DNA from: Chloroflexota bacterium
GTDB lineage: Bacteria > Chloroflexota > Dehalococcoidia > Lucifugimonadales > UBA3495
Length of the DNA: 50,051 nt
Direction of reading: 5' to 3'
Assembly (NCBI GenBank): GCA_022562475.1
Contig: JADFPD010000003.1
Span: 1 to 50,051, forward strand
The notes under the pieces are model-generated. The model had not been told where the DNA came from and did no database searches. It saw only the letters and a list, made by a program, of their open reading frames with translations. The position numbers and the translations under genes were made by a program. Numbering within the stretch: the first letter of the stretch is position 1; each line of letters begins with the position of its first letter. Shown here one piece after another: positions 39,065 through 50,051 of the stretch.

Positions 39065-40246
39065 TTAGCCCATCGGGTCGGCGCCGGGGAAGCCCAACAT
39101 GAATTGGCCGTGGTTTTCATACGCGCGGTCGCTGACCATATTGTGCTGGGCGCCGCCGTGGATGTCGCGCAGGCATTTCTGCAAGATGTGAGAGTTGTAC
39201 ATAGCGGTCCCGCCGCCGAACCGGAACGCCTGGGAAACGATGTCTGAAGCCTCTTCGGTACTGTAGGTCCCCGACGCCCGCAGGCGGACTTGCAACGGTG
39301 GGGGCGGAGTTATGCCTTGGCAGACCGATTCCCATGCCTCTTCGATGGTTTCCATACATAGGGCTTTGGCCGCCCGTAGCCGCAGGTCGGACTCGCCCAG
39401 GAATCGTTGGAACGAGCCCCGGTCGGCCACCAGCGCTTGAGTGCCCTTGTAGCCGCGTTTCTTGTTTTGGGCCAGTTCGGTCACCTCGTCCAGGGCCCGG
39501 CGCCCCACGCCCAGCGCGAACCCGCAATGCCCGGTGGTCTGCATCCCCGGCCGGCCCAGCAGGAAGTTCGGTCCGCCGCGCAGAGGCCTGGCGTCAGCCC
39601 CTCCCCAGGTGAACCGCTGGGGCACAAAAACGCCGGAAACGGAGAACTCGCAACTGCCGGTCCCTCGCAGGCCCACCACGTGCCAATTGTCGTGGATCTG
39701 GACTTGTGAGGTGGGGACCGCCATCCGGACCATCTGGCTTGGTTCTGGGGTGCCGTCCGCAACCATGGCCGCGAAGGCAACCCACTCTGAATGCCGTATT
39801 CCGCTGGCGAAGGCCCAGCGCCCGGTGACCCGGTAGCCTCCTTCCACCGGCGTCGCCTGGCCGCTGGGAAAAGCCACTCCCGCGGCTTTGGGGGCCTTGC
39901 CGTCAACGAAGATCTCATCGATGGCCTCGTCGCAAAGAAAAGCGGCCATGCCGGACAGCGTGCCGGCGCCGATCATCAAGCACCACCCGGCCGACGGCTC
40001 GATGCGGCTGGCGGCCTCGATCACCTCCAATTGAATCATGGCGTCGGCCTCGGCCCCGCCCAGGACAGCGGCCGTCTTGAAGGAAAACAGGCCGGACTCA
40101 TAGATGGCGTCCACCGTGGCTTGGGGCAAAGTGCCCGCCTCTTCAGCGTCGTCGGCCCCAGCCAAAAATACCCCCCGCAAGCCCTCCACTGCGTCCAGCA
40201 ACGCCCGCCGCTTGGCCTCCCGCTGTTCAGGAAATGTTGCGATCAA
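39065..40246 (-). CDS. Acyl-CoA dehydrogenase-fold flavin-dependent monooxygenase (HsaA-like)
   Basis: GGYRVTGRWAFASG, DNWHVVGLRGTGS and GGTAMY....LQKCLRD; TTG start after GGAG. Confidence 0.85.
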   Translation of the reverse strand: MIATFPEQREAKRRALLDAVEGLRGVFLAGADDAEEAGTLPQATVDAIYESGLFSFKTAAVLGGAEADAMIQLEVIEAASRIEPSAGWCLMIGAGTLSGMAAFLCDEAIDEIFVDGKAPKAAGVAFPSGQATPVEGGYRVTGRWAFASGIRHSEWVAFAAMVADGTPEPSQMVRMAVPTSQVQIHDNWHVVGLRGTGSCEFSVSGVFVPQRFTWGGADARPLRGGPNFLLGRPGMQTTGHCGFALGVGRRALDEVTELAQNKKRGYKGTQALVADRGSFQRFLGESDLRLRAAKALCMETIEEAWESVCQGITPPPPLQVRLRASGTYSTEEASDIVSQAFRFGGGTAMYNSHILQKCLRDIHGGAQHNMVSDRAYENHGQFMLGFPGADPMG

Positions 40247-40381
40247 TTTTAGTCTCCATTGGCCACGAGTGTTGGTCGTGGCTTGTTGAAACGTTCGTTG
40301 AGTAGATGGCGGCATCGTAGGCGCGCCTTATGGGGAAAGTGTTATCTCTATCGCTGTGGCTGTCAAATTGGGGGCTGGGGG

Positions 40382-40425
40382 TGGTGAGCGGTGCGGGGGT
40401 CGAACCCGCGGCGCCTGGGTTAAAA
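40382..40425 (-). pseudogene. 3' half of tRNA-Lys(UUU), likely displaced att-site fragment
   Basis: Minus strand TTTTAA-CCCAG-GCGCC-GCGGG-TTCGACC-CCCGC-ACCGCTC-A-CCA gives tRNA positions 33-76; no 5' acceptor strand or D-arm upstream. Confidence 0.8.
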
Positions 40426-40713
40426 CTACGGCCGAAGACCATGCGACTGCGCGCAACGGGTAATCATTGCCGTTCTCTACTCTGGTTGGGAGACATCAAG
40501 CTCGGCGCGTTCCGGTGGTTTCTAGCTTTCTGTTGCGCCTATGTTGCAATCTTCGCGACCTGTGTAGATGCAAGACCGGACTAAATCATGTTTGGTAATA
40601 TTTAATTGACTGATTCTCAATTTTACAAGCGACTATAGCGCCACGATTTGTACGATTCTTGACCTCGACCTGGTAACCTATGGAATAAACTAAAAACGTC
40701 TAGCAATCGATTT

Positions 40714-42111
40714 ATGACGGCCACGAATAACCTAAATGTCATCTTGCAATTGACCGACTCAGTTATGACTCGCGCCTGCGCGGTCCGTTTGAACCACGAT
40801 GACGTATCGATGCCCTGGGAAAGTTTGCTTGAGCGATACCTCAAATACCCTCCATTTGAGGAGTTGCTCCAAGAGCAACGCATAACTTCTGATTCCTCCA
40901 GAATCTTGTCAGCGATCCAAGACTTGGCCTATGTCAGCGACGACGACGGGTTGCTCCATGACTTGTTCCCTGGAACGATCGTCAAGCAAGGGGGCCGCGC
41001 TTTAGCAACCGGGACGGTTCCGGAAGTGGGCCTCGGGCGCGCAGGAGAGTTAGAAGTCGCGGTGATTGACTTAGAATTGGACCGCTGGAATGTGGGCTAC
41101 AGCCGCAATCTGGTGGGTTTCAAAAAACGGAGATGGGCGAAGGACGAGCAGGCCTATCGGGAATTTATCAGGTCCGCGGTTGAACGCGACCACGGTTCTT
41201 CGGACGCTGATTCTATCCTTGAACTGGATTCCGCGCAGGACAGGCTAACGCTGCTGCGGTCGTTGGCCACGCGAATCTGGGAAGCCGACTTTGAGAGCTA
41301 TTCGCGTTTCACCGGTCAAAGACTCATATTTAAGTCGGGGGATGAAACGGTCCAGAACATGATCGCCGGCGGCGGTGGCATCTGCTCGGAAAAAGTCCAG
41401 GCGCTGAAATTCCTAACAGACAACCTGGGGTACGAGTCGGAGTATCTACTGGCCGGACCCAACGCTCGAAATCCGCTCCCAGAAGAAAGATTGAGGAATC
41501 TCCTCGCTACGTTCGAATTCGATTACTCGAAACGGTATATGCGTTACTGGGAGCACTTGGCGTTGTTGTATCACCTAGACGGCTCCGACATTGTCGTGGA
41601 CGCCACGAATGGGAATATACCCCTCCTATTCCTAGCTGGGGCCGAGGTCGATAAGATGCTTAATCGTAAGGAAAAAACTCCGGTATCCGTGAGGATGTCA
41701 CTTAATGAGGAGTCTTTTTACTACCACCGGGTATCTCAGGATATTCCGGAGAACCTGCTTTTTGCGCTGGAGGGTTGGATACCTGAGGTTGACTTGATCC
41801 AAGTGTTTGAAAACGAATTAGGCCTTTTCATCTCAGAAGGATTCTTCATCACTCCGATCGTATACAAGAATCAGCAGGAGTTCTTGGACCTCCGGAAGCA
41901 ATATATAAACGCGTGTGGGAAAGTCGGATTCGATTGCGCCATCGCAGAAGAATGGGACTTGGAGTCCGAGATTGGACAAATGTTTGCCAAGGAGCACCCT
42001 TTCGCCAGCCGGCAAATCATGGAGTGCGAAGAGCACTTATTGTTCCGATACAATGAGAGCGAAGGTCAAGACCACAAAGCCGGTATCGTGGTAGTAAGTC
42101 TGAAGCAATGA
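40714..42111 (+). CDS. Arylamine N-acetyltransferase/transglutaminase-like Cys-His-Asp protein with N-terminal extension
   Basis: GGGICSEK..ALKFL..NLGY, EHLALLY.LDG and IVVDATNG match NAT/TGase catalytic core spacing; start uncertain (40714-40810). Confidence 0.7.
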   Translation: MTATNNLNVILQLTDSVMTRACAVRLNHDDVSMPWESLLERYLKYPPFEELLQEQRITSDSSRILSAIQDLAYVSDDDGLLHDLFPGTIVKQGGRALATGTVPEVGLGRAGELEVAVIDLELDRWNVGYSRNLVGFKKRRWAKDEQAYREFIRSAVERDHGSSDADSILELDSAQDRLTLLRSLATRIWEADFESYSRFTGQRLIFKSGDETVQNMIAGGGGICSEKVQALKFLTDNLGYESEYLLAGPNARNPLPEERLRNLLATFEFDYSKRYMRYWEHLALLYHLDGSDIVVDATNGNIPLLFLAGAEVDKMLNRKEKTPVSVRMSLNEESFYYHRVSQDIPENLLFALEGWIPEVDLIQVFENELGLFISEGFFITPIVYKNQQEFLDLRKQYINACGKVGFDCAIAEEWDLESEIGQMFAKEHPFASRQIMECEEHLLFRYNESEGQDHKAGIVVVSLKQ

Positions 42112-42194
42112 TCGTATGTGCCGTGCTGCCACCGGTTATCCCAGCTATTGAGTATTCGAGTTAACTGACAAGGAATCACTGAGATTATCTCGGC

Positions 42195-43265
42195 ATGATA
42201 GAACTGATCTTAATAGGTTTTTACCGCGCCAGGCGGAAGAAAAAACTCGGCGGCTCCGTAGTGTTGTCGGCTCTTCTGCTCAGCATTGTCGGAAATGCGA
42301 TGACCTTCTTTCTGTTTGAGAGAAGCATACGTCCGGATTTATCGATTGGCGATAGCTTTTGGTACAGTATGATATCGATTACGACTATCGGATACGGTGA
42401 CCTATCCGCGACAACTCTTGGCGCCAGGATCGGAACGATCCTTTTTATCACGATTTTGGGTCTAACTGCGTTCACGGCATCAGCCGGCATGTTGATCAAC
42501 TGGCTGATCGAGTTGCAGAGCCGGGAGCGGTCCGGCGTGGGGAGGTTATATCTGAAGAATCACATATTGATAATCAACTACCCAAACGAGGCTCGTGTAC
42601 GTAACATCATCGACGAATACACGTCGGATTCCAGCCACAAAAACGACGACATCACCGTGGTGACGGACCGTGTGGAATCGTTGCCATTCCACCAACCAAA
42701 CATCCATTTCTTGCGCGGCTCGCCCCTGGAGATGGAAACCTATGATAGGGCGGCGGTCGCTGGAGCCCAGAAAGCGATCGTATTAAGCACGGGCTACGAC
42801 GACCCAAACAGTGACAGCATCGTCGCCTCTGCCGTCTCCGTGTTGCACCGTTCAAACCCTAATATCATGGCCACCGTGGAATGTATCAATTCCAGGCACG
42901 CGGTGCTGTTTGAGGGGATGGAGAATACCTCCCTGGTTTTCCCGCTACAGATGGCCAACAATCTTCTTGTGCAAGAATCTCAAGATCCTGGAGTAAGCCT
43001 GCTGGCCCAAGTCATCACTAGTAATAAAATGGAAGGCACCCTGCTCAGCATACGGTTGGAAGACATGCCGGAACAGCGTGTCTCTTATCCGGAGCTGGCA
43101 AAAAACATGCTGGACATCGACGTTAACGTGGTGGGCATCGTGCGTGACGGGACCGTGCATCTCAGGTTCAAAGACCTATTCCCCATGAAAGATGACGTGA
43201 TGGTCTATATCGCCTCCTCCCGGCTGGATCGGAGTTCAGTGAATTTAGCGAGAAATAATGGGTAG
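42195..43265 (+). CDS. Two-TM potassium channel with RCK (TrkA-N) domain
   Basis: DSFWYSMISITTIGYGD selectivity filter; KNHILII.. and FLRGSP...YDRAAV..AQKAIVL RCK features. Confidence 0.9.
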   Translation: MIELILIGFYRARRKKKLGGSVVLSALLLSIVGNAMTFFLFERSIRPDLSIGDSFWYSMISITTIGYGDLSATTLGARIGTILFITILGLTAFTASAGMLINWLIELQSRERSGVGRLYLKNHILIINYPNEARVRNIIDEYTSDSSHKNDDITVVTDRVESLPFHQPNIHFLRGSPLEMETYDRAAVAGAQKAIVLSTGYDDPNSDSIVASAVSVLHRSNPNIMATVECINSRHAVLFEGMENTSLVFPLQMANNLLVQESQDPGVSLLAQVITSNKMEGTLLSIRLEDMPEQRVSYPELAKNMLDIDVNVVGIVRDGTVHLRFKDLFPMKDDVMVYIASSRLDRSSVNLARNNG

Positions 43266-43291
43266 ACCTATATTGATCGGCAGCTTAAACG

Positions 43292-46200
43292 ATGGCTAAG
43301 AATCAGGTAATCGATCGGCTAAATGGCATTGCTCGATCCATGAATGCTCAAGATGGGTCTACTACCCAATTGGCCAAAAACCGCCTGAAAAAGATCAGGA
43401 GCCAAGAGGTCGGTTCTTTTTCCGATGCCCAATTACGGGACACCATCACGGCGTTCACCCGCCAAAACCATAGCCACTCGGGTGAAGATGCTTTGCCGCA
43501 GGTGTTCGCTGTCGTCAATGAAGCAATCAATCGACGTCAGGGAGCATGGCGATTTTTCGAATCGGCCGCCATGGACCATAAACTTGCGGCGATTCACGAA
43601 CGGGCCGACCGCATCTCCCAAAGAGCTGATTACAAGAAAGCAGTGATCGAGTGGGCTTCCAACGGCGGCGAATGCTGGGAGAGCTTCCATCGCGCCGTCA
43701 CGCCGGTCTTGGTCCGCCAGAAGCTAGAATCCTGGGAGAAGGTCTTGGTCGGAACGGTCCTATATGTGCGTCAACGAAGCCAGGTGGCGTACACGGCAGA
43801 CATCCTACTCCCCGCATGTTTCTACGAGACACTTCGGAGCCGTGACGAAGAACAAGAGCTGGCATTCGAGGTGACCGACGCACAGGTCCTGGCCGGCCTC
43901 CTTCTATACCAAGGGAAGATCGTGGAGATGAATGCCGGCGAGGGTAAAACGATAGCCGCGGTATTTCCCGCCGTGCTGCACGCGGTCCACGGTAGAAAGG
44001 TGCACGTGATCACCGCCAACGATTACCTGGCTGCCAGAGATGCCGAGTGGCTTGCCCAGGTTTTTGGGTCCCTTGGACTGGGCGTGAGCGCCGTTTTGGA
44101 GGTTATGGAGGAATCTGAACGGAAAATCGCCTACGGGAAGGCGATCGTATACGGCGCGCTTAGGGAATTTGGGTTCGACTTCATGCGGGACAACCTAAAA
44201 CTGTCATCTGCTGAGGTCGTCCAACGTGAATTGGATGTGGTCATCATAGATGAGGCCGATCACGCGTTGATCGACGAGGCTAATATTCCATTGATCATTG
44301 TCGGCGGCGCCGGCGAAATCCCGAAAATACCGGCCAAGCTCCGGAGGACCATCGAACAGTTGGTTGACCTGCAGCGGGCTGCCGTTTCGGAATTAGAGCA
44401 GGAATTGGAACGCGTTCGATCGGGTTCAAATGCCGCTTTCCTAGTCTTGGCGAAACTTTATCTCGCAGACCCTGACAATGCATTGTTGCAGCAAGAAATC
44501 GCTTCCGGTCCGAAGTGTTTGAAACGCCTGCAACGAGTTATCTCCGAGTACCGAGTTGAAGAAGAATATGATTCTTTGACCGCCGGTTTTTCTTATTGGA
44601 TCGACAACGACGGTAAATCCCTATGCCTGACCGAGAAAGGCCAGGATTTTATCGAGTCCTGTCTCGGCCCACTGTTTGACGACTCGGAACTCAGGGACCG
44701 GCTCAGCGATTCCCATGCGAATCAGGACCTACCGCTGAAGTTACGCAGGAAAGAGACCAACGACCTCAGCCGCCAACTTGCGAGGAAGCAAGACCGGATG
44801 CACCAAATAGTGCGCATGATCTGGGGCTACGCTCTCCTGAAAAAGGATGTGGACTACCTCGTGAGAGATGATCAGGTAGTCCTGATCGACAAATACACCG
44901 GGCGAGGACGCCCCGATACCCGTTACCACTTCGGGCTTCAGGCGGCCCTCGAAGTAAAAGAGGGCGTTACCGTGCAGCCGGAGCAACAAGTGCTGGGGCA
45001 GATATCCGTACGAGGGTATATCTCCCAATACGGCATGGTGTCCGGGATGACTGGGACCGCCATGTCCTCCAGAAGCGAATTTAGACGTGGCTACGGCTTG
45101 GATGTCATATCCGTAGCTCCCAGCAACGCCGTCAAGCGCACCGACCATGAGCCCAGGATGTATTTCAGCAAGCAAGACAAGCTTCAGGCCATGTTGGATG
45201 AGGTCCGGTTCTGGCATGAAGTTGGCAGGCCGGTGTTGATCGGTACCCATTCCATCGGTGAATGTGATCTGATCTCTCAACTGTTGACTCGTGACGGCAT
45301 CGAGCACAACCTGCTCAACGCGGCAAACGACTTGGAAGAGGACCGGACCATTAACGAAGCAGGCCATTTCGGTTCGGTAACTGTGGCCACCGACATGGCA
45401 GGAAGAGGGACCGACATCATCTTGGAGGCCGGTTTGGACCGGCGGATCGCCGGTAGCTACGTTGCGTTGCTGTGCCGATTGCTTTCACAAGGGGTTGGAG
45501 TTGTGAAACTCAACTGCCCCACGGACGGCGCCGCTGAGATATTGTTGTCGGCCATCGGCGCCGGGGACCTGGGTTATTCAATCGTCAAACTCAATCAAGG
45601 GTCCCGGACAGAGGTGGTCCTGCGTGCCCAAGACTCGTCCTCACACAGCGGTACGGTCACCATGGACTTTGGGCTTGGCCTGCTGGTGATCGGAACGGAA
45701 GCCAGCGATAACGCGAGGGTTGATCATCAGCTCATGGGGCGGAGCGGACGGCAGGGCGCTTTTGGAGCGTCGCAGTTCTTCCTTTCTTCAGAAGACAGTC
45801 TCCTAAAGGACACAGGCCCAGCTCTTTCAGCGGCGAAGGATGCCCGGTTAGACTCAGCCGGCCGGACCTTTCAGGAAGGAGCGCCGTTGATTCGCCACCT
45901 CGAACAACTCCAGAAAAATGCCGAGAAGGATGCCGAATCACGTCGCGCGAGAATCGAAGAGTACACCAAGGTTTTCGAAGCCCAGTCTTTTGCCTACTAC
46001 CGCAGCCGCAGGGACATCCTTCGCATGGACGACTTCCAGTCCTTCCTTGACGGCTTAGTCTCCGCAAAGGCAGCGCAACTCTCACAAAAGTACTTCCCGG
46101 GAAGGCAGGTTGATGACTACGCGCGTCAATTTGCGGACCTGAGCGAGGAATTAGACTTAGATTACAATGTTTCGGCCTCTGAATTACGCGGTGTAGACCT

Positions 46201-46567
46201 AAACCTTCTCGAGCAGGGAATCGCCGGATTGCTCAATGAAAAACTGGACCGGGCTAGAGAGAGGTTCGCCGGCAATAAGTTTAACGAGTTGGGCACGCTA
46301 TTATATCTGCAAACAAGCGACGAACTATGGAAAGATCATATCTCCAACGTCCAGAGCTTGATTCTGAGCACCCAGTTGTGCGGCTATCATGGAAGAGGCG
46401 ACATGGCTGCTTTCACACTAACAAGCTTCGCGTCATATGAGCTATTTCAAACTCGAATCATGGATTCGTTCTTACCTAGACTGTCCGATTTCCCAAATCC
46501 GCCAACCGGCGGGCCCCAGCCGCCGCAGATAGAACTATTCCAGGATGTCATGGAGATTCTGGCATAA
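43292..46567 (+). CDS. secA: Divergent SecA paralogue (preprotein translocase ATPase)
   Basis: EMNAGEGKT, VHVITANDYLAARDAEW, EFGFDFMRDNL, IIDEAD..LIDEA, GMTGTA, GRPVLIGT, ATDMAGRGTDI and QLMGRSGRQG; no C-terminal zinc-binding motif. Confidence 0.9.
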   Translation: MAKNQVIDRLNGIARSMNAQDGSTTQLAKNRLKKIRSQEVGSFSDAQLRDTITAFTRQNHSHSGEDALPQVFAVVNEAINRRQGAWRFFESAAMDHKLAAIHERADRISQRADYKKAVIEWASNGGECWESFHRAVTPVLVRQKLESWEKVLVGTVLYVRQRSQVAYTADILLPACFYETLRSRDEEQELAFEVTDAQVLAGLLLYQGKIVEMNAGEGKTIAAVFPAVLHAVHGRKVHVITANDYLAARDAEWLAQVFGSLGLGVSAVLEVMEESERKIAYGKAIVYGALREFGFDFMRDNLKLSSAEVVQRELDVVIIDEADHALIDEANIPLIIVGGAGEIPKIPAKLRRTIEQLVDLQRAAVSELEQELERVRSGSNAAFLVLAKLYLADPDNALLQQEIASGPKCLKRLQRVISEYRVEEEYDSLTAGFSYWIDNDGKSLCLTEKGQDFIESCLGPLFDDSELRDRLSDSHANQDLPLKLRRKETNDLSRQLARKQDRMHQIVRMIWGYALLKKDVDYLVRDDQVVLIDKYTGRGRPDTRYHFGLQAALEVKEGVTVQPEQQVLGQISVRGYISQYGMVSGMTGTAMSSRSEFRRGYGLDVISVAPSNAVKRTDHEPRMYFSKQDKLQAMLDEVRFWHEVGRPVLIGTHSIGECDLISQLLTRDGIEHNLLNAANDLEEDRTINEAGHFGSVTVATDMAGRGTDIILEAGLDRRIAGSYVALLCRLLSQGVGVVKLNCPTDGAAEILLSAIGAGDLGYSIVKLNQGSRTEVVLRAQDSSSHSGTVTMDFGLGLLVIGTEASDNARVDHQLMGRSGRQGAFGASQFFLSSEDSLLKDTGPALSAAKDARLDSAGRTFQEGAPLIRHLEQLQKNAEKDAESRRARIEEYTKVFEAQSFAYYRSRRDILRMDDFQSFLDGLVSAKAAQLSQKYFPGRQVDDYARQFADLSEELDLDYNVSASELRGVDLNLLEQGIAGLLNEKLDRARERFAGNKFNELGTLLYLQTSDELWKDHISNVQSLILSTQLCGYHGRGDMAAFTLTSFASYELFQTRIMDSFLPRLSDFPNPPTGGPQPPQIELFQDVMEILA

Positions 46568-46618
46568 ACGCCGTTGGGACCTAAGACCCGAGGAATCATT
46601 CTGAGAGGGGTATGAGAC

Positions 46619-47425
46619 ATGGCTAAACGAAAAAGAATGGGAATGTCGCTTCTCCTGGGCTCTGGCATGCTGGTAGCCGGCCCGGTGATAGCCGGTTGTT
46701 CGCCCGGCGTGAGCGCAAATGATTGGGCCGCCACCGAGGGCGCCATCGGCAGGATCAACATGGATGCGGTCCAAGAGGCGTTTCAGAAATCCCAGACCGT
46801 CGAGGAATTCGAAAAGCGTTTGAATGAGATCTACGAAGGGGACGGTATCGTTTTGATCCGAGCCAAGGAAGAGGATGGAAAACGCATTATCGAAGCCTAT
46901 GAGGAGCTGGATAACAACAGTGAAATAGACCCAGCAAAAGACGATTTGCTATTTACAATTACGAATGAAAATAATAACAACGAACTACGCGGGCGCGGCG
47001 CGAATAGGCATTACAGCGCCTTTGGGGGCGGCGGGAATTTTCTCTTTACCTACCTGATCTTCTCGTCAATCACACGAGGTGGTTACGGTTACCACACGCC
47101 TCGTTCCCGGGTACCGCAGATGAAGAGCGATCGGACTAGTTATCGTAATTCTTCGGGATATTCGGGCGGGTCTAGCGGAGGGCAGGTCAAGAGAAACTCC
47201 AATTATTACAACAAACAAAGCGCGTCCAATCGAAACTCCTATAATAGCGCCGGCCGCAATTTGAGCCCAGCCAGGCAGAGCTATATCGGAAGGCAGAAAA
47301 GCAGCGGGGCATTTAAGAGCAGCAGGACCGGAGTCAGAGGCAGTTTTGGAAGATCCGGCGGGAGAAGTGGAGGGGTCAGGGGAGGCGGTGGCGCACAGGT
47401 TATCATCGGTCACTTAAGGCGGTGA
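46619..47425 (+). CDS. Lipoprotein with acidic globular domain and Gly/Ser/Arg/Tyr-rich disordered tail
   Basis: Basic N-terminus, hydrophobic core and lipobox IAG-C; tail ending RGSFGRSGGRSGGVRGGGG. Confidence 0.8.
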   Translation: MAKRKRMGMSLLLGSGMLVAGPVIAGCSPGVSANDWAATEGAIGRINMDAVQEAFQKSQTVEEFEKRLNEIYEGDGIVLIRAKEEDGKRIIEAYEELDNNSEIDPAKDDLLFTITNENNNNELRGRGANRHYSAFGGGGNFLFTYLIFSSITRGGYGYHTPRSRVPQMKSDRTSYRNSSGYSGGSSGGQVKRNSNYYNKQSASNRNSYNSAGRNLSPARQSYIGRQKSSGAFKSSRTGVRGSFGRSGGRSGGVRGGGGAQVIIGHLRR

Positions 47426-47450
47426 CCCTCCTCAGATAGCGAGCAGAAGA

Positions 47451-48566
47451 ATGGCTGTGCAAAATCCCCGATACCAGAAAGACTTGGCGGATTTCTCCAT
47501 CGAATATGACCCCGCTAAGGCATTCTACGTCAAGCATCGCCCGTTTATCCTCCAGGTTTCCCTGGGGGAAATGAGCCTTGAAGACGCATTCTGGGTGGAG
47601 CTGGGACCGGAATACGTTAACTTCCGCCTCAGCGAGTTCCTCGACATCGTTTTCCCCCGGAATAAAAGGCAACAAGCAAAGTTCCGCTCTACGCTCGATG
47701 TAAAAGAAAACCCGGACCTTCCGGAGATGTACGCCGCTTTGCTGGAGATATTCGATGAGTGGCGTAGCGGAAAATGCTCTCTTCAGTTCTTTGCCAACCT
47801 GGGCCCAGAGATCAAACTAACCGACCGGCTGGACGACCATCTCAGCTTGATGCGATCAGCGGAGCATCTGATCGAGGAAACTCCATTGTTGGACTTGGTG
47901 ATCGAACAGAAAATCGACGTTCTGGATTACCTGACCACCGCTGGTTATTTTAAGAACAAACAGACAACGATGGAATTCATGCAGGGAAATATGCTGATGT
48001 ACTTCCTGGAAAAGCATAATTACAAACTTTCGATCGCGCCGATAGACGACATCGATAAAAAACTATCGCCCATCGCCAGGAAGCTACACTCGGTGAACCT
48101 GATCGCACCATCTGAACTGGACCAAATCTTTGAAATATCCGAGGAAGGCAGAGAAGCGATCGGGAGAACGATCGCTGAGACAGAATCCTATATAAATCAA
48201 TACGACGTGTTTAAAGACGTGTACTACGATTCCGGAAGCGGGGCGATCGAATTCAATACTGGACGCGGACAGGACCTGAGAGTTCAGATCTATGAGTACG
48301 AAGAAGTGGACCCGGTACGGGTCGTATTCTTGCTTCGCCTCTACGATGGGACATTTGACGAAGTCTTGGCAACCTGGCGTGATTCGATCCACTCGGAAGA
48401 ATATTTCGGCGAAGTTTTAAGCCCGGTGGTCAACGCGGAGCGTATCGACGAAGATATGGTTGACTTGGTCATCGAAGCCGGATACAACTTCTCTGAGCTA
48501 CGTTCCGATACATCTGTCGAAGTAGAGACGCAGGAAGAATTGCTCAGACGGATCGAGAAAAAGTAA
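47451..48566 (+). CDS. Hypothetical acidic cytoplasmic protein
   Basis: 371-aa ORF closing the co-directional run; possible winged-helix segment LHSVNLI...FEISEEGREAI. Confidence 0.75.
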   Translation: MAVQNPRYQKDLADFSIEYDPAKAFYVKHRPFILQVSLGEMSLEDAFWVELGPEYVNFRLSEFLDIVFPRNKRQQAKFRSTLDVKENPDLPEMYAALLEIFDEWRSGKCSLQFFANLGPEIKLTDRLDDHLSLMRSAEHLIEETPLLDLVIEQKIDVLDYLTTAGYFKNKQTTMEFMQGNMLMYFLEKHNYKLSIAPIDDIDKKLSPIARKLHSVNLIAPSELDQIFEISEEGREAIGRTIAETESYINQYDVFKDVYYDSGSGAIEFNTGRGQDLRVQIYEYEEVDPVRVVFLLRLYDGTFDEVLATWRDSIHSEEYFGEVLSPVVNAERIDEDMVDLVIEAGYNFSELRSDTSVEVETQEELLRRIEKK

Positions 48567-48582
48567 AGGACCGCCGTCTGCG

Positions 48583-49509
48583 TCAGATAGCTATGAACAG
48601 TATCATTGCCGAGCTTATGACCACGGAGCTTTCTATGAAAGCCACGCCCAGGTTGCGGTCGACTGCCATGGCTCTTGATGCAGAAACGGTGGGCAGCAGC
48701 AACTTGTCCAGCATCAACCTCATCACGTAAAGCAGCGCAAAACCGATCACACCAAAGGTTATAAAGGCCGCGATTCCTTCGTTCCACCCGTCGAAATCTC
48801 CGAACACTGCCTTAAATGTCACTAACCCGATGGCGATCAGGTTTCCTCCCAACGCGACACCTACGGCAGTATTTTTGCTTTCGATCTCGGAATGCATATC
48901 GAATGACGTCGTCAGTTGGTAAAACAGGGCAAACGCCACCAGGAACACTAATCCCATTCCAAAGAACGCCGCTGCTGTATCCGGGCCACCGCCTTCTCCA
49001 GCCAGGGAGCCGGCGATCAATAGCCCAGTGGCGATATACATCCCAAACTCGGCGGCGCCGCTACCGACATTTTGGCCTTCAACCACCTCTTTCTCGATAT
49101 CGAACCGGTAAAGTATCAACCGGTTCATGAAGATCCTGACCAGGTTAAGAGCTGCGATGCCCGCTAAAGAATAGAGAAACACTCTCAGAATGTCCTCGGC
49201 ATATTCCCGGTCGAATCCCAGACCCTCCACGGCGATAGAAGTAACCGGCTGGTACAAAGCGCCAAGAAAAACGAGGATGACGCCCATGAAATAACCGCTA
49301 AGCCGCACCGAGACCGCCAAATTATTCTTGTTGACGACCTCATCATCGATCTTGTAGGGGGTGATGATGTCCCGCGCTAACTTAGCGATCACCAAAATGA
49401 CCAAACCTAGCCCGACAAACGCCAATCCTCGAGGGAAAATCTCCAGTGTATCGATAAAAGCGTCAATCATTGCTTCGCCACCTGTAAACCGTTCATTCTG
49501 CTTTTCCAA
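48583..49509 (-). CDS. DUF350 (YjfL-like) tandem-domain membrane protein
   Basis: Repeated motif TPYKIDDEVVNKNNLAVS / FDIEKEVVEGQNVGSG / FDMHSEIESKNTAVG / AVDRNLGVA between TM helices. Confidence 0.85.
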   Translation of the reverse strand: MEKQNERFTGGEAMIDAFIDTLEIFPRGLAFVGLGLVILVIAKLARDIITPYKIDDEVVNKNNLAVSVRLSGYFMGVILVFLGALYQPVTSIAVEGLGFDREYAEDILRVFLYSLAGIAALNLVRIFMNRLILYRFDIEKEVVEGQNVGSGAAEFGMYIATGLLIAGSLAGEGGGPDTAAAFFGMGLVFLVAFALFYQLTTSFDMHSEIESKNTAVGVALGGNLIAIGLVTFKAVFGDFDGWNEGIAAFITFGVIGFALLYVMRLMLDKLLLPTVSASRAMAVDRNLGVAFIESSVVISSAMILFIAI

Positions 49510-49826
49510 TCATAGTTGATTTAGGAGTATATATTAGACGTTAAGCGAACAATCTATGAGGAATATCGACCTGCCCGTTGGATTTTGTTATTGTAGTGGG
49601 CACGCTGGAGCAGGTCAAACGAATTCCTTGTGAATTCGGTCAGGTCAATGGATGGTCCATCTATCAAAATCCTCGGTCCACCTAAACAAAGCCAGGCAGC
49701 CGCCAGTGTAACCTCCCAAAGAGAAAGCGGTCTTGACGTCGCCGCAAGTGCGGCAATTATGCCATCGGCGAAGCTCATGACTCGATCTGTGGGTCGCCAT
49801 TTGACCATATTGGAGTTGAAGGGACT

Positions 49827-50051
49827 TTGATCAGCAATCCGAATCAGGCCACGGTTGAGGAATTAGCGGAGTTGGCAGTGGTGTTTAAAAACGCCGCGGA
49901 TTCGATTGCAACCCCGGCTTTCGTCTATGAAGACGCGTTTATCGTGTCCCGATGTGAGTACCTCAAAGCGATTGCTGACAGAGCCGGATGCAAGCTCCTT
50001 TATTCAGTCAAGGCGCTAACTTTGCCCTGGGTCCTGGAACTTATCGCCCCT
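49827..50051 (+). CDS. 5' part of a fold-III PLP decarboxylase (carboxynorspermidine/diaminopimelate decarboxylase-like), truncated by the window end
   Basis: Not in ORF track; MISNP...IATPAFVYEDAFI..RCEYLKAIADRAGCKLLYSVKALTLPWVLELIAP has the TP.FVY motif and the YSVKA PLP lysine. Confidence 0.75.
   Translation, partial: MISNPNQATVEELAELAVVFKNAADSIATPAFVYEDAFIVSRCEYLKAIADRAGCKLLYSVKALTLPWVLELIAP

What the first reader, a model, noticed from the sequence alone, without database searches (positions are those of the whole stretch)
40714..50051. Candidate undescribed system: dedicated SecA + K+ channel + NAT/transglutaminase-like enzyme + G/S/R-tail lipoprotein + DUF350 + polyamine-type decarboxylase
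Seen: five tightly spaced co-directional genes (gaps 25-83 nt), a convergent double-DUF350 gene and a divergent fold-III decarboxylase, all inside the putative island. Established: DUF350 (YjfL) and lipoproteins with RGGFG-like tails (YjfM/YgiB, DUF1190) occur in PspA-linked envelope loci with polyamine enzymes, typically a glutathionylspermidine-synthetase-like ATP-grasp ligase or spermidine synthase, often with an RCK K+ channel. I do not know of such loci containing a SecA paralogue. Inference: a variant in which a Cys-His-Asp acyl-transfer enzyme conjugates a locally made polyamine and a private SecA exports the basic or modified lipoprotein, with the channel responding to membrane stress. 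A role in envelope repair or phage defence is possible but untested.
Basis: partly seen in the sequence, partly recalled or inferred. Interest (0 to 1): 0.85.

Follow-up and report, generated by a model that had tools for sequence, protein, structure and literature searches.

The report
Accessory SecA gene cluster in Dehalococcoidia
A second, divergent SecA motor protein is always encoded next to one particular lipoprotein with a strongly positive tail, an unknown acidic protein and an acyl-transfer enzyme, which points to an undescribed private protein-export system linked to membrane-stress and polyamine genes in uncultured marine Chloroflexota.

Summary
Window 40714-50051 holds five co-directional genes, a convergent double-DUF350 gene and the cut start of a decarboxylase, in a stretch of GC 0.50-0.53 against 0.593 for the genome.

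The SecA is a second copy; the housekeeping SecA lies on another contig. The cluster recurs. Of 74 species loci seeded with the first gene, 68 carry the SecA paralogue and 65 carry SecA, lipoprotein and the 371-aa protein together. Of metagenome loci seeded with the lipoprotein, 33 of 33 have a SecA-like gene just upstream and 40 of 41 have the 371-aa protein downstream.

The first gene folds as a beta-grasp domain plus an arylamine N-acetyltransferase (NAT) fold, with an invariant Cys-His-Asp. Related loci add DUF4178, PspA, PspAA, an nspC-like decarboxylase with DUF3326, a PaaK-like CoA ligase, Usp, DegV and PadR.

Five of five complete carrier genomes have one SecY only. No known SecA2 model reaches its cut-off. 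I found no description in print.

My reading is a lineage-restricted accessory-SecA system inside a PSP/DUF350/polyamine neighbourhood. Export of the lipoprotein and the enzyme's substrate are inferred, not shown.

The parts
40382..40452 (-). Degenerate tRNA-like relic at the point where GC drops. It may mark the left border of an acquired segment. It is not a functional part of the system.
   Evidence: ARAGORN finds it only at relaxed stringency, as a 71-base 'tRNA-Stop(tta)' with a good T-arm. The default run finds no tRNA in the window. No intact copy is found elsewhere in the incomplete assembly.
40714..42111 (+). p1: a cytosolic 465-aa protein (pI 4.8). It has an N-terminal beta-grasp (ubiquitin-like) domain of about residues 1-128, and a NAT-fold Cys-His-Asp acyltransferase-like domain of about residues 130-457.
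   Evidence: No Pfam, NCBIfam or PADLOC family matches. At least 782 homologues exist, all unnamed or 'hypothetical'. C224, H281 and D296 are invariant in A1. The model has pLDDT 86.3. VIA-align gives Z 12.9 to 7qi3_A and 11-12.3 to NATs. The best Foldseek hit is a NAT at E 2.4e-4.
42195..43265 (+). p2: a two-TM K+ channel (TTIGYGD filter) with a cytoplasmic RCK-like domain. It is an optional member of the cluster.
   Evidence: Pfam gives Ion_trans_2 and Slo-like_RCK. It is present in 45 of 74 full loci.
43292..46567 (+). p3: a divergent SecA paralogue of 1091 aa. All four SecA domains and the motor motifs are present. It carries three clade-specific insertions, has no C-terminal zinc-finger tail, and its two-helix-finger motif has diverged.
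   Evidence: It is 36-37% identical to the genome's housekeeping SecA over the motor blocks. It scores below the curated cut-offs of SecA and of all four SecA2 models.
46619..47425 (+). p4: the cognate lipoprotein. It has a signal peptide with lipobox Cys27, an acidic domain at 28-137 (net -11), a short hydrophobic stretch at 138-152, and a conserved basic S/G/R/Y/Q tail at 153-268 (22 K+R against 1 D+E).
   Evidence: Alignment A3 has 49 invariant columns, including tail residues. The family has 212 representative clusters in 1.84 billion proteins. It always lies just downstream of the SecA paralogue.
47451..48566 (+). p5: a cytosolic acidic protein of 371 aa (pI 4.56) of no known family. The model shows a beta-grasp-like N-terminal part, a winged-helix-like middle and a long C-terminal helix.
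   Evidence: No Pfam or NCBIfam family matches. The model has pLDDT 90.5. Only weak fold matches appear, with Z no higher than 6.8. Invariant residues are N87, P88, D89, Y94, G233, D256, G273, D275, R277 and G344. It lies downstream of p4 in 40 of 41 metagenome loci.
48583..49509 (-). p6: a membrane protein with two DUF350 (YjfL-type) repeats, convergent with the operon.
   Evidence: Pfam DUF350 matches at E 2e-48 in 2 stretches. It is present in 50 of 74 full loci. The best promoter-like site of the region (10 of 12) lies upstream at 49618-49590, but the number of such sites is not above shuffles.
49827..50051 (+). p7: the first 75 residues of an nspC-like fold-III PLP decarboxylase, cut by the contig end. 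In the closest relatives the gene is full length and is followed by a DUF3326 gene.
   Evidence: tblastn gives 82% identity to L004. Full-length L007 c7 scores 302 bits to TIGR01047 nspC (cut-off 409), and the next gene matches DUF3326 at E 2.2e-70.

Best explanation
This is a lineage-restricted accessory-Sec gene cluster. Its fixed core is a divergent SecA paralogue, one cognate lipoprotein (p4) with a conserved polycationic tail, and a cytosolic acidic protein (p5). A NAT-fold Cys-His-Asp enzyme (p1) is always present in the same genome.

Most likely mechanism, all of it inferred:
- The paralogue works as a 'SecA2-only' type motor on the single housekeeping SecYEG.
- It drives export of p4, whose +21 tail would be hard to move against the membrane potential.
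- p5 acts as a cytosolic escort or adaptor.
- p1 takes an acyl group onto Cys224 from a thioester, made in many relatives by an adjacent PaaK-like CoA ligase. It passes the acyl group to an amine.
- That amine is most plausibly the triamine made by the adjacent nspC-like decarboxylase plus DUF3326 pair.

The cluster sits in, and probably serves, the PspA/PspAA/DUF350/DUF4178/K+-channel membrane-stress neighbourhood already described for other phyla. There, an ATP-grasp ligase or spermidine-synthase-like enzyme takes the place of p1.

Shown: gene content, folds, second-copy status, strict synteny and co-occurrence, and a single SecY.
Inferred: export of p4 by this SecA, the role of p5, the substrates of p1, and the stress function.
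For: Second SecA:
- G000 has a housekeeping SecA (415.5 bits) and this one (239.4 bits).
- Five of five single-contig carrier genomes have two SecA and exactly one SecY.
- The motor motifs GEGKT, DEAD, MTGTA, GRGTD and GRSGRQG are kept. The zinc-finger tail, present in the housekeeping copy, is absent.

Synteny:
- Of 74 genome loci with at least 9 kb downstream of p1, 68 have the paralogue, 65 have p4, 65 have p5 and 65 have all three.
- Seeding independently with p4 in metagenomes gives 33 of 33 with a SecA-like gene less than 1.5 kb upstream, and 40 of 41 with p5 downstream.
- The order p1-c13-CoA ligase-c9-SecA-p4-p5 holds at 26-40% identity in 3 of 3 loci of a second family.

Co-occurrence, counting genomes without the cluster:
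- Class sample: p1 in 4 of 151 genomes. All 4 have a SecA_DEAD match starting at model position 66-73, on the same contig and within 9 kb.
- Own family: p1 in 31 of 61 and p4 in 30 of 61. All 30 p4 carriers have p1, and no genome has p4 without p1.
- Phylum sample: p1 in 1 of 401 and p4 in 1 of 401, in both cases only G000.
- Where p1 is unlinked, 5 of 5 genomes keep p4 elsewhere with the SecA paralogue beside it.

p1:
- NAT fold at Z 11-12.9; invariant C224, H281 and D296.
- The His-to-Asp spacing of 15 and a GGGxC motif resemble NATs. This comparison is recalled, not tested.

Charges: p4 tail 22 K+R against 1 D+E; p5 pI 4.56; p1 pI 4.79.

Neighbours among 71 SecA-bearing loci: DUF4178 32, nspC-like 29, DUF3326 26, CoA ligase 18, PspA 17, PspAA 9.

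Literature:
- A DUF3326 protein (PavB), together with a decarboxylase-domain protein, is needed for a triamine intermediate of pavettamine. Passages read, bioRxiv 10.64898/2026.06.12.731819.
- The DUF350 + lipoprotein + DUF4178 + PspA + polyamine-enzyme theme is in PMC11237479 (passages read).
Against: - No result shows that p4 is exported by this SecA, or that p5 binds anything.
- The two-helix-finger motif that canonical SecA inserts into SecY is not conserved in the paralogue clade. Coupling to SecY is therefore uncertain.
- The short hydrophobic stretch followed by a +21 tail would, by the positive-inside rule (established knowledge), favour a tail that stays in the cytoplasm. That would remove the rationale of a hard-to-export tail.
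- Polyamine genes lie within the 10-kb flanks in only 29 of 71 SecA-bearing loci, and PspA in only 17 of 71.
- DUF350 and the K+ channel are missing from the three f29 loci examined.
- p1 matches no Pfam NAT model, and its donor and acceptor are unknown.
- In the window's own assembly (78% complete) no PspA, PspAA, DUF4178, DUF3326, c9 or c13 was found at E below 1e-8.
Confidence: 0.45

Rival explanations
1. An aSec-like logic. p1, with the CoA ligase where present, covalently modifies the Ser/Lys/Gln-rich tail of p4 in the cytoplasm. The modified protein can then leave only through the dedicated SecA, with p5 playing the part of the Asp accessory proteins. In this reading the polyamine genes are neighbours or supply the modifying group.
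For: - p1 stays in the genome even when unlinked from the rest (5 of 5).
- It co-occurs with p4 in 30 of 31 p1-positive family genomes.
- The tail has invariant residues, including Q189, R172, Y175 and R176, so it is not mere low complexity.
- p1 also resembles transglutaminases, LapG and TglA, which act on proteins, at Z 7-8.
- The layout of substrate gene + SecA paralogue + cytosolic accessory protein + cytosolic modifying enzyme parallels the streptococcal SecA2/SecY2 loci (recalled knowledge).
Against: - The match covers the whole three-domain NAT fold (268 of 340 residues of 7qi3_A, Z 12.9). It is clearly stronger than the matches to protein-modifying transglutaminases, and known NAT-fold enzymes act on small amines.
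- There is no SecY2.
- No glycosyltransferase or Asp-like family was seen among the neighbours I annotated.
Confidence: 0.2
2. The paralogue is not a SecY-dependent export motor. The basic tail of p4 stays in the cytoplasm (N-out, C-in, with a lipid anchor). The SecA-like ATPase, with p5, acts on that tail or on the DUF350 8-TM protein as a membrane-proximal remodelling or insertion machine within the PSP stress response.
For: - A hydrophobic stretch is followed by a tail of net +21.
- The two-helix-finger motif has diverged, the canonical C-terminal tail is lost, and three clade-specific insertions are present.
- N-terminal length varies among distant versions, with Walker A at ORF position 67-238.
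- A convergent DUF350 gene is present in 50 of 74 loci, and DUF4178, PspA and PspAA are frequent.
Against: - The PPXD preprotein-binding domain and the wing/scaffold domains are all retained, as expected of a translocase.
- The hydrophobic stretch is about 13-15 residues with a Kyte-Doolittle maximum near 1.2, which is short for a membrane helix.
- DUF350 was not detected in the f29 loci, which still keep SecA-p4-p5.
Confidence: 0.15
3. An anti-phage defence or abortive-infection island: a channel plus an ATPase plus an enzyme, carried on a mobile segment.
For: - Distribution is patchy: 31 of 61 genomes of the family, and 0 of 3 other genomes of the own genus.
- The segment has low GC, with a tRNA-like relic at its border.
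- Flanking genes vary between loci.
Against: - No PADLOC model matches any of the seven proteins. The only exceptions are two weak helicase-type hits on the SecA motor, at E 0.0019 and 0.046.
- No relative of p1 or p4 is found in the viral contig collection.
- The recurrent neighbours are stress and metabolic genes: PspA, PspAA, Usp, DegV, PadR and polyamine enzymes.
Confidence: 0.05
4. The genes are unrelated neighbours, or the SecA is simply the housekeeping copy.
For: None found.
Against: - A housekeeping SecA lies elsewhere in the genome.
- The gene order is conserved at 26-84% identity in two families and in metagenomes.
- Presence and absence track each other closely across genomes.
Confidence: 0.01

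Closest known systems
Accessory SecA2 systems: 'SecA2-only' in mycobacteria, Listeria and Clostridioides; SecA2/SecY2 'aSec' in streptococci and staphylococci
   Same: - A second SecA sits beside an intact housekeeping SecA.
- The motor motifs are kept and the C-terminal zinc-finger tail is lacking.
- As in SecA2-only systems, there is a single SecY.
- As in aSec loci, the presumed substrate gene, a cytosolic accessory protein and a cytosolic modifying-type enzyme are encoded alongside. The aSec layout is recalled knowledge.
   Different: - It is below the curated cut-offs of all four NCBIfam SecA2 models (357-431 bits against cut-offs of 725-1100), and scores higher to canonical SecA models (540 and 519 bits).
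- It is larger (1091 aa), with three clade-specific insertions.
- The partner genes (p4, p5, NAT-fold p1) have no counterpart in known SecA2 loci.
- It is found in uncultured Dehalococcoidia/SAR202-type genomes, plus distant versions in metagenomes.
PspA-associated polyamine/DUF350 operons (Ravi et al., mSystems 2024, PMC11237479)
   Same: Related loci hold an 8-TM double DUF350, a cell-surface lipoprotein, DUF4178, PspA, PspAA, a K+ channel with a cytoplasmic ligand-type domain, and polyamine-pathway genes. The paper's description comes from the passages.
   Different: - The paper's operons use a spermidine-synthase-like 7TM fusion, or a glutathionylspermidine-synthetase-like ATP-grasp ligase, with CesT/Tir chaperones.
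- This cluster has none of these among the neighbours I annotated. It has a NAT-fold enzyme, a SecA paralogue, p5, and nspC-like plus DUF3326 instead.
- 'SecA' and 'transglutaminase' occur 0 times in the paper's main text. Its supplementary tables could not be read.
E. coli yjfIJKLMC / ygiBC type loci (DUF350 YjfL, DUF1190 YjfM/YgiB, ATP-grasp YjfC/YgiC)
   Same: Both have DUF350, and a lipoprotein with a hydrophobic stretch and a glycine/arginine-rich tail. The E. coli layout is recalled.
   Different: - p4 is not a DUF1190 member by Pfam (1 of 28 at E 0.083).
- There is no ATP-grasp ligase, DUF2491 or DUF2170.
- A SecA paralogue is present.
Arylamine N-acetyltransferases and NAT-fold amide synthases or N-malonyltransferases (for example 7qi3 FDB2, 8oom GdmF)
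   Same: The three-domain fold matches at Z 9.6-12.9 over 205-268 residues, and the family has an invariant Cys-His-Asp.
   Different: - No sequence-level match to Pfam or PDB profiles.
- An extra N-terminal beta-grasp domain.
- Identity to NATs is 7-15%.
- The genomic context is a Sec/PSP/polyamine cluster.
Carboxy(nor)spermidine dehydrogenase/decarboxylase pathway and PavA/PavB of pavettamine biosynthesis
   Same: - The decarboxylase is full-length nspC-like (302 bits).
- Its partner gene is DUF3326, the family of PavB. PavB, together with the decarboxylase-domain protein PavA, is needed for a sym-triamine intermediate (passages read).
   Different: - The decarboxylase is below the nspC cut-off of 409.
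- No saccharopine-dehydrogenase-type CANSDH is present.
- No Rieske or JmjC partners are present.
- The product here is unknown.

Membership tests
SecA (preprotein translocase ATPase) superfamily | The four SecA domains are present: DEAD-like NBD1, PPXD, P-loop NBD2, and wing/scaffold. | tested here: met
   Pfam E-values are 5.7e-75, 3.2e-16, 1.6e-46 and 7.2e-16.
SecA (preprotein translocase ATPase) superfamily | The ATPase motifs are intact (Walker A GEGKT, DEAD, MTGTA, GRGTD, GRxGRQG). | tested here: met
   Read in the alignment with the housekeeping SecA and 13 paralogues. GEGKT and DEAD were also found in 8 of 10 distant SecA-like ORFs; of the other two, L160 is cut at its 5' end and L132 has GEGKT but no DEAD match.
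Housekeeping SecA equivalog (TIGR00963 / PRK12904) | The score reaches the curated cut-off. | tested here: not met
   519.4 bits against a cut-off of 800, and 539.7 against 814. A separate copy scoring 415.5 bits on SecA_DEAD lies on C166.
Housekeeping SecA equivalog (TIGR00963 / PRK12904) | C-terminal zinc-binding tail (CxCxSGKKxKxCH type). | tested here: not met
   The tail is present in the housekeeping copy and absent from the window protein and all 13 aligned paralogues. It is also absent from the 10 SecA-like ORFs next to p4 in distant loci.
Known accessory SecA2 families (TIGR03714, TIGR04221, TIGR04397, NF012136) | The score reaches the curated cut-off of one of the SecA2 models. | tested here: not met
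   413.3 against 930, 403.8 against 725, 430.8 against 1085, and 356.8 against 1100.
Accessory SecA systems, as a functional kind | A second SecA co-exists with a housekeeping SecA. | tested here: met
   True of G000 and of 5 of 5 complete carrier genomes.
Accessory SecA systems, as a functional kind | A dedicated second SecY (aSec type only). | tested here: not met
   Exactly one SecY match in 5 of 5 complete carrier genomes. SecY was not found at all in the 78%-complete G000.
Accessory SecA systems, as a functional kind | It exports a defined subset of proteins. | not testable with these tools
   Only the strict adjacency to p4 speaks for this.
PSP-associated DUF350/polyamine operons (PMC11237479) | A DUF350 (YjfL) membrane protein. 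| tested here: met
   E 2e-48 in two stretches. Present in 50 of 74 loci. Not detected in 3 of 3 f29 loci.
PSP-associated DUF350/polyamine operons (PMC11237479) | PspA, and DUF4178, in the neighbourhood. | tested here: inconclusive
   Neither is in the window, whose contig ends at 50051, nor in the rest of the incomplete assembly. In related SecA-bearing loci DUF4178 occurs in 32 of 71, PspA in 17 of 71 and PspAA in 9 of 71 within 10-kb flanks. All three are also seen in metagenome loci.
PSP-associated DUF350/polyamine operons (PMC11237479) | A spermidine-synthase-like or GspS-like ATP-grasp polyamine enzyme. | tested here: not met
   Neither family appears among the recurrent neighbour clusters scanned with Pfam or NCBIfam. 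An nspC-like decarboxylase and DUF3326 occur instead.
DUF1190 (YjfM/YgiB) lipoproteins | A match to Pfam PF06693. | tested here: not met
   One of 28 family members, at E 0.083; none for the window protein.
Arylamine N-acetyltransferase (NAT) family | A sequence match to the Pfam NAT model or to NAT chains in the PDB. | tested here: not met
   No Pfam family at E up to 0.01. A profile search of PDB sequences gave 0 hits at E up to 1.
Arylamine N-acetyltransferase (NAT) family | The three-domain NAT fold. | tested here: met
   Z 12.9 (268 aligned, rmsd 4.6) to 7qi3_A. Seven further NAT chains give Z 11.0-12.3. Foldseek E-values run from 2.4e-4 to 2e-3.
Arylamine N-acetyltransferase (NAT) family | A catalytic Cys-His-Asp triad. 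| tested here: inconclusive
   C224, H281 and D296 are invariant in 24 of 24 sequences. Their superposition on the NAT triad was not inspected, because no residue-level structural alignment was available.
Carboxynorspermidine decarboxylase (nspC, TIGR01047) | The score reaches the curated cut-off. | tested here: not met
   The full-length relative L007 c7 scores 302.1 bits against a cut-off of 409.05, aligned over 1-377 of 380. The window fragment scores 12.5 bits.
Known anti-phage defence systems (PADLOC-DB 2.0) | A match of any component to a defence model. | tested here: not met
   None for six of the seven proteins. The SecA motor gives two weak DinG-type hits, at E 0.0019 and 0.046.

The most novel reading that the evidence does not exclude
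A third kind of accessory Sec pathway. A SecA paralogue is devoted to a single lipoprotein whose polycationic tail is first acylated or polyaminated in the cytoplasm by a NAT-fold enzyme fed by a private CoA ligase and a private triamine pathway. The tail is then threaded out, possibly through or alongside the DUF350 8-TM protein rather than only SecY. This would coat the outer membrane face with a tethered polycation as part of the PspA membrane-repair response.
Probability: 0.15. Interest if true: 0.88.

Novelty: new variant of a known kind. Interest (0 to 1): 0.72.

Why it matters
Accessory SecA systems are known mainly from Gram-positive pathogens, and each has taught something about how difficult substrates are exported. 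This cluster would add an unrelated clade from abundant, uncultured marine and sediment Chloroflexota. It offers an unusually clean candidate substrate: one lipoprotein, always the next gene.

It also brings two protein families of no known function (p4, p5) and a new branch of the NAT fold. It ties the poorly understood DUF350/DUF4178/PspA/polyamine neighbourhood to protein export, which the published survey of PSP partners does not mention. It further gives a second genomic context for DUF3326 as a polyamine-pathway enzyme.

All of this can be tested with a handful of heterologous expression experiments.

Tried and rejected
No earlier notes were seen.
- Complex prediction of p4 (residues 28-268) with p5 gave no verdict (score 0.00, mark 0.32). 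This is neither for nor against binding.
- Profile-profile comparison of p1 and p5, which both seem to start with a beta-grasp domain, found no homology (probability 1%).
- For p5, Foldseek gave no hit at E up to 1e-3 and VIA-align gave no Z of 8 or more. The winged-helix and ubiquitin-like resemblances (Z 5.2-6.8) are leads only. The protein atlas gave no usable hit.
- For p4, the atlas gave look-alike clusters labelled Myxococcota (0.94, 0.93) and UPF0323 (0.83). These leads were not followed to genomes.
- PDB sequence searches with the p1 and p5 profiles found nothing significant.
- The promoter and terminator scan of 40200-50051 gave 6 and 14 sites, against 8.3 and 9.9 expected from shuffles. 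It gives no operon evidence.
- Rfam gave nothing near any gathering score.
- There is no tRNA in the window at default stringency.
- No relatives of p1 or p4 were found in viral contigs.
- Sequencing runs: no RNA holder was listed. One DNA run holds 0.98 of the words and may be the source. When laid, RNA-library contigs of the same study matched only as short pieces 90-95% alike, on the 3' end of p1, on SecA and on p5. These are relatives at best, and DNA carry-over is not excluded, so this is not evidence of expression.
- SecY was not found in G000, which is 78% complete, so this is uninformative. The rest of the decarboxylase gene, DUF3326, PspA, PspAA, DUF4178, c9 and c13 were not found elsewhere in the assembly.
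- In the class sample, 13 further genomes had two or more SecA_DEAD matches. I did not examine them. At least some are split matches of one gene. 23 matches were not listed.
- No SecA phylogeny with outgroups was built, because I had no SecA2 reference sequences from a tool.
- The gene calls in scripts were simple longest-ORF calls. Some small 'x' ORFs are surely spurious, and some family members were missed by the clustering. This is why the tblastn counts are the ones quoted.
- Supplementary tables of PMC11237479 could not be opened. They may list neighbourhoods that bear on the claim that no SecA partner is in print.
- The 'not in print' statement rests on searches of the held library only.

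Full report
**What is in the sequence.** The window is the whole of contig C99 of a 2.96-Mb metagenome-assembled genome (166 contigs, 78% complete). The contig stops at 50051.

From 40714 onward there are five co-directional genes with gaps of 83, 26, 51 and 25 nt. A convergent gene follows, and then the first 75 codons of a divergent one. GC falls from about 0.60 to 0.50-0.53 at about 40.4 kb, against 0.593 for the genome. A degenerate tRNA-like relic sits exactly there, at 40382-40452 on the minus strand; it was found only at relaxed stringency, and none at default.

- a K+ channel with an RCK-type domain and a TTIGYGD filter;
- a SecA with all four SecA domains;
- a lipoprotein with lipobox Cys27 and a G/S/R tail;
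- a double DUF350 protein;
- the start of a fold-III PLP decarboxylase.

The 465-aa and 371-aa proteins match no Pfam, NCBIfam or PADLOC family.

**The SecA is a paralogue.**
- The genome has a housekeeping SecA on contig C166 (415.5 bits on SecA_DEAD). The window copy scores 239.4 bits and matches the model only from position 70.
- The two are 36-37% identical over the motor blocks.
- The window protein is below the curated cut-offs of the canonical SecA models. It is further below those of all four SecA2 models.
- I aligned it with the housekeeping copy and 13 paralogues from other genomes. The clade keeps GEGKT, DEAD, MTGTA, GRGTD and GRSGRQG.
- The clade has an insertion of about 100 residues in NBD1, a second insertion after the IPLII(A/V)G strand, and a third of about 80 residues in NBD2.
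- It lacks the zinc-finger tail that the housekeeping copy has. It does not conserve the canonical two-helix-finger motif.
- Five of five single-contig genomes of the same family that carry the cluster have two SecA genes, one of them next to p1, and exactly one SecY.

**Recurrence, seeded with p1.**
- p1 has at least 782 homologues in the protein collection. All are unnamed or 'hypothetical', and those with a name come from SAR202, Dehalococcoidia or Chloroflexi MAGs.
- In one genome per species, 192 stretches encode a relative. The best 80 are all titled Dehalococcoidia, Chloroflexota or SAR202.
- Of the 74 loci with at least 9 kb downstream of p1, 68 have the SecA paralogue, 65 have p4, 65 have p5, 65 have all three, 50 also have the double DUF350 gene, and 45 have the channel.
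- The six loci without SecA next to p1 have p1 beside an MFS transporter, an alpha/beta-hydrolase-type protein and a 2-hydroxyacid dehydrogenase. In five of five such genomes tested, p4 lies elsewhere with the SecA paralogue beside it. In four of them c13, the channel, a CoA ligase, c9 and Usp lie upstream of it; the fifth (L092) instead has p5, DUF350, DUF4178, PspA and PspAA downstream.

**Recurrence, seeded independently with p4.**
- A profile of p4 finds only 212 representative clusters among 1.84 billion. One distant member is labelled Spirochaetota.
- The family shares the whole layout: lipobox, a conserved FEKRVNEIYEGD domain, a short hydrophobic stretch, a YYTPxxR...RxxYR motif, and a Ser/Arg tail.
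- In metagenome contigs, 281 stretches encode a relative, and 80 were kept.
- Of 33 loci with at least 2.5 kb upstream, 33 have a SecA-like gene ending less than 1.5 kb upstream. Of 41 with at least 1.5 kb downstream, 40 have p5.
- This holds for the most distant loci too (33-40% identity). One of them, L160, has a different order: SecA-p4-p5-p1-nspC-like-DUF3326.
- The SecA-like genes of these distant loci also lack the zinc finger, and all but two show both GEGKT and DEAD; L160 is cut at its 5' end and L132 has GEGKT only.

**Presence and absence across genomes.**
- In a sample of 151 genomes of the class, p1 is in 4 (G000 and three of family f29). All four have a paralogue-type SecA_DEAD match on the same contig within 9 kb. 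Thirteen other genomes had two or more SecA_DEAD matches that I did not examine.
- In 401 genomes of the phylum, p1 and p4 are each found only in G000.
- In the window's own family, p1 is in 31 of 61 genomes (18 of 27 genera) and p4 in 30 of 61. All 30 p4 carriers have p1. The only genome with p1 but not p4 is 73% complete.
- None of the three other genomes of the own genus has p1. Together with the low GC and the tRNA-like relic, this fits recent acquisition by this genome.
- In family f29, 4 of 8 genomes carry p1. Three of three loci examined there have p1-(c13)-CoA ligase-c9-SecA-p4-p5 at 26-40% identity (c13 was detected in two of the three), without a detected channel or DUF350.

**What the unknown proteins look like.**

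*p1.* The model has pLDDT 86.3 and pTM 0.88.
- Residues of about 130-457 match the complete arylamine N-acetyltransferase fold. The scores are Z 12.9 over 268 residues to the FDB2 N-malonyltransferase, Z 11.0-12.3 to seven NATs, and 9.6 to the GdmF amide synthase. Transglutaminases, LapG and TglA give 7-8.
- Foldseek agrees, with a best E of 2.4e-4.
- Residues 1-128 form a beta-grasp, ubiquitin-like domain (Z 5.5-7.1).
- C224, H281 and D296 are invariant. The GGGxC context and the His-Asp spacing of 15 resemble NATs as I recall them, but I did not inspect a residue-level superposition.

*p5.* The model has pLDDT 90.5 and only weak matches: winged-helix regulators at Z 5.2-6.8 for residues of about 150-290, and ubiquitin-like folds at Z 5.3-5.6 for about 26-155. 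It is acidic (pI 4.56), as is p1 (4.79).

*p4.* It has an acidic domain (net -11) and a tail with 22 K+R against 1 D+E. The hydrophobic stretch between them is short and only moderately hydrophobic.

**The wider neighbourhood.** Recurrent neighbours were annotated by Pfam and NCBIfam. Counts are among the 71 SecA-bearing genome loci, within 10-kb flanks.

| Neighbour | Loci of 71 |
|---|---|
| DUF4178 | 32 |
| nspC-like decarboxylase (302 bits, cut-off 409, full length) | 29 |
| DUF3326 | 26 |
| unknown 221-aa protein c9 | 25 |
| DegV | 22 |
| PaaK/F390-type CoA ligase | 18 |
| PspA | 17 |
| unknown c13 | 10 |
| PspAA | 9 |
| PadR | 9 |
| Usp | 5 |

The six closest full relatives of the window (L004-L007, L009 and the cut L008) show CHD-Kch-SecA-Lipo-p5-<DUF350 followed by the nspC-like gene and DUF3326. 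That is therefore what most likely lies beyond 50051.

**Comparison with what is in print.**
- The PSP survey (PMC11237479, passages read) describes two relevant kinds of operon. One has an 8-TM DUF350 protein, a novel lipoprotein, DUF4178, a spermidine-synthase-like 7TM fusion and a CesT/Tir-PspA dyad. The other has a GspS-like ATP-grasp ligase, a K+ channel, DUF350, DUF1190 and DUF2491.
- SecA and transglutaminase are not mentioned in its main text. Its supplements were closed.
- Searches for SecA with DUF350, SecA with SAR202, and SecA2 with Chloroflexi, Chloroflexota or Dehalococcoidia found nothing relevant in the held library.
- A 2026 preprint (10.64898/2026.06.12.731819, passages read) reports that a DUF3326 protein, PavB, together with PavA, is needed for a sym-triamine intermediate. 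PavA carries alanine-racemase-like and decarboxylase-like domains. This supports reading the nspC-like plus DUF3326 pair as a polyamine-building module.

**How it most likely works.** The tightest unit is SecA paralogue-p4-p5. A private SecA next to one secreted protein is the signature of accessory Sec systems, and the single SecY puts it with the 'SecA2-only' kind.
- I therefore read p4 as the substrate and p5 as a cytosolic escort for its polycationic tail.
- p1 is a thioester-dependent acyltransferase. The adjacent CoA ligase in many relatives would supply the donor, and the adjacent triamine module the acceptor. This would make p1 the functional stand-in for the ATP-grasp amide ligases of the known PSP/polyamine operons.
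- DUF350, DUF4178, PspA, PspAA, Usp and the RCK channel place the whole in membrane-stress physiology.
- Each of these steps is inference from context, fold and charge.

The main rivals are these:
- p1 modifies the p4 tail itself before export, as in the aSec logic.
- The tail stays cytoplasmic, and the SecA-like ATPase acts on it or on DUF350 rather than through SecY.

Phage defence has no support.

**Verdict.** It is best filed as a new variant of two known kinds at once: accessory SecA systems and PSP-linked DUF350/polyamine loci. It brings three protein families of unknown function and a new NAT-fold branch.

Noticed in passing
window 40382-40452 (-): A degenerate tRNA-like element (good T-arm, odd anticodon arm) sits exactly where GC drops. 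It may be the remnant of an integration site. No intact counterpart is found in the incomplete assembly.
   Followed up: partly
L029, L037, L039, L058, L059, L064 (genome-contig loci); L090-L094: In 6 of 74 species loci p1 has moved away from the cluster, next to an MFS transporter, an alpha/beta-hydrolase-type protein and a 2-hydroxyacid dehydrogenase. In 5 of 5 such genomes tested, SecA and p4 remain together elsewhere, in four with c13-channel-CoA ligase-c9-Usp upstream and in one (L092) with p5, DUF350, DUF4178, PspA and PspAA downstream.
   Followed up: yes
L033, L049, L055, L066, L078; G569:C1:421827-423838; G578: Several genomes carry two or three tandem or dispersed copies of the p4 lipoprotein gene.
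   Followed up: no
L160:1-7843: A distant metagenome locus has the order SecA-p4-p5-p1-nspC-like-DUF3326. The same parts are kept together in another arrangement.
   Followed up: partly
L007:19100-21389 and other c7/c8 pairs: An nspC-like decarboxylase is paired with DUF3326 rather than with a saccharopine-dehydrogenase-type enzyme. This is the same family pairing as PavA/PavB of pavettamine biosynthesis. It suggests that DUF3326 is a general alternative partner enzyme in triamine synthesis.
   Followed up: partly
window 40714-41100 and 47530-47915 (N-terminal parts of p1 and p5): Both cytosolic proteins of the cluster seem to start with a beta-grasp (ubiquitin-like) domain, yet profile comparison finds no homology between them.
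   Followed up: partly
L095, L096, L173 against L100, L115, L156 (SecA-like ORFs): The N-terminal region of the SecA paralogue varies strongly between sub-clades. Walker A lies at stop-to-stop ORF position 67-92 in the f29-type and at 214-238 in the window-type. The NBD1 insertion is therefore not universal.
   Followed up: no
G542:C1:1821453-1822778: The housekeeping SecA of one complete genome matches the SecA_DEAD model in two pieces within one 1116-aa open frame. This suggests an insertion in NBD1 of the housekeeping copy too.
   Followed up: no
upstream of p1 in 22 of 71 loci (for example L066:9117-9995; L012:7719-8117): A DegV (fatty-acid-binding) gene lies directly upstream of p1, preceded in 9 loci by a PadR regulator. 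This hints that the acyl donor of p1 could be a fatty acid.
   Followed up: no
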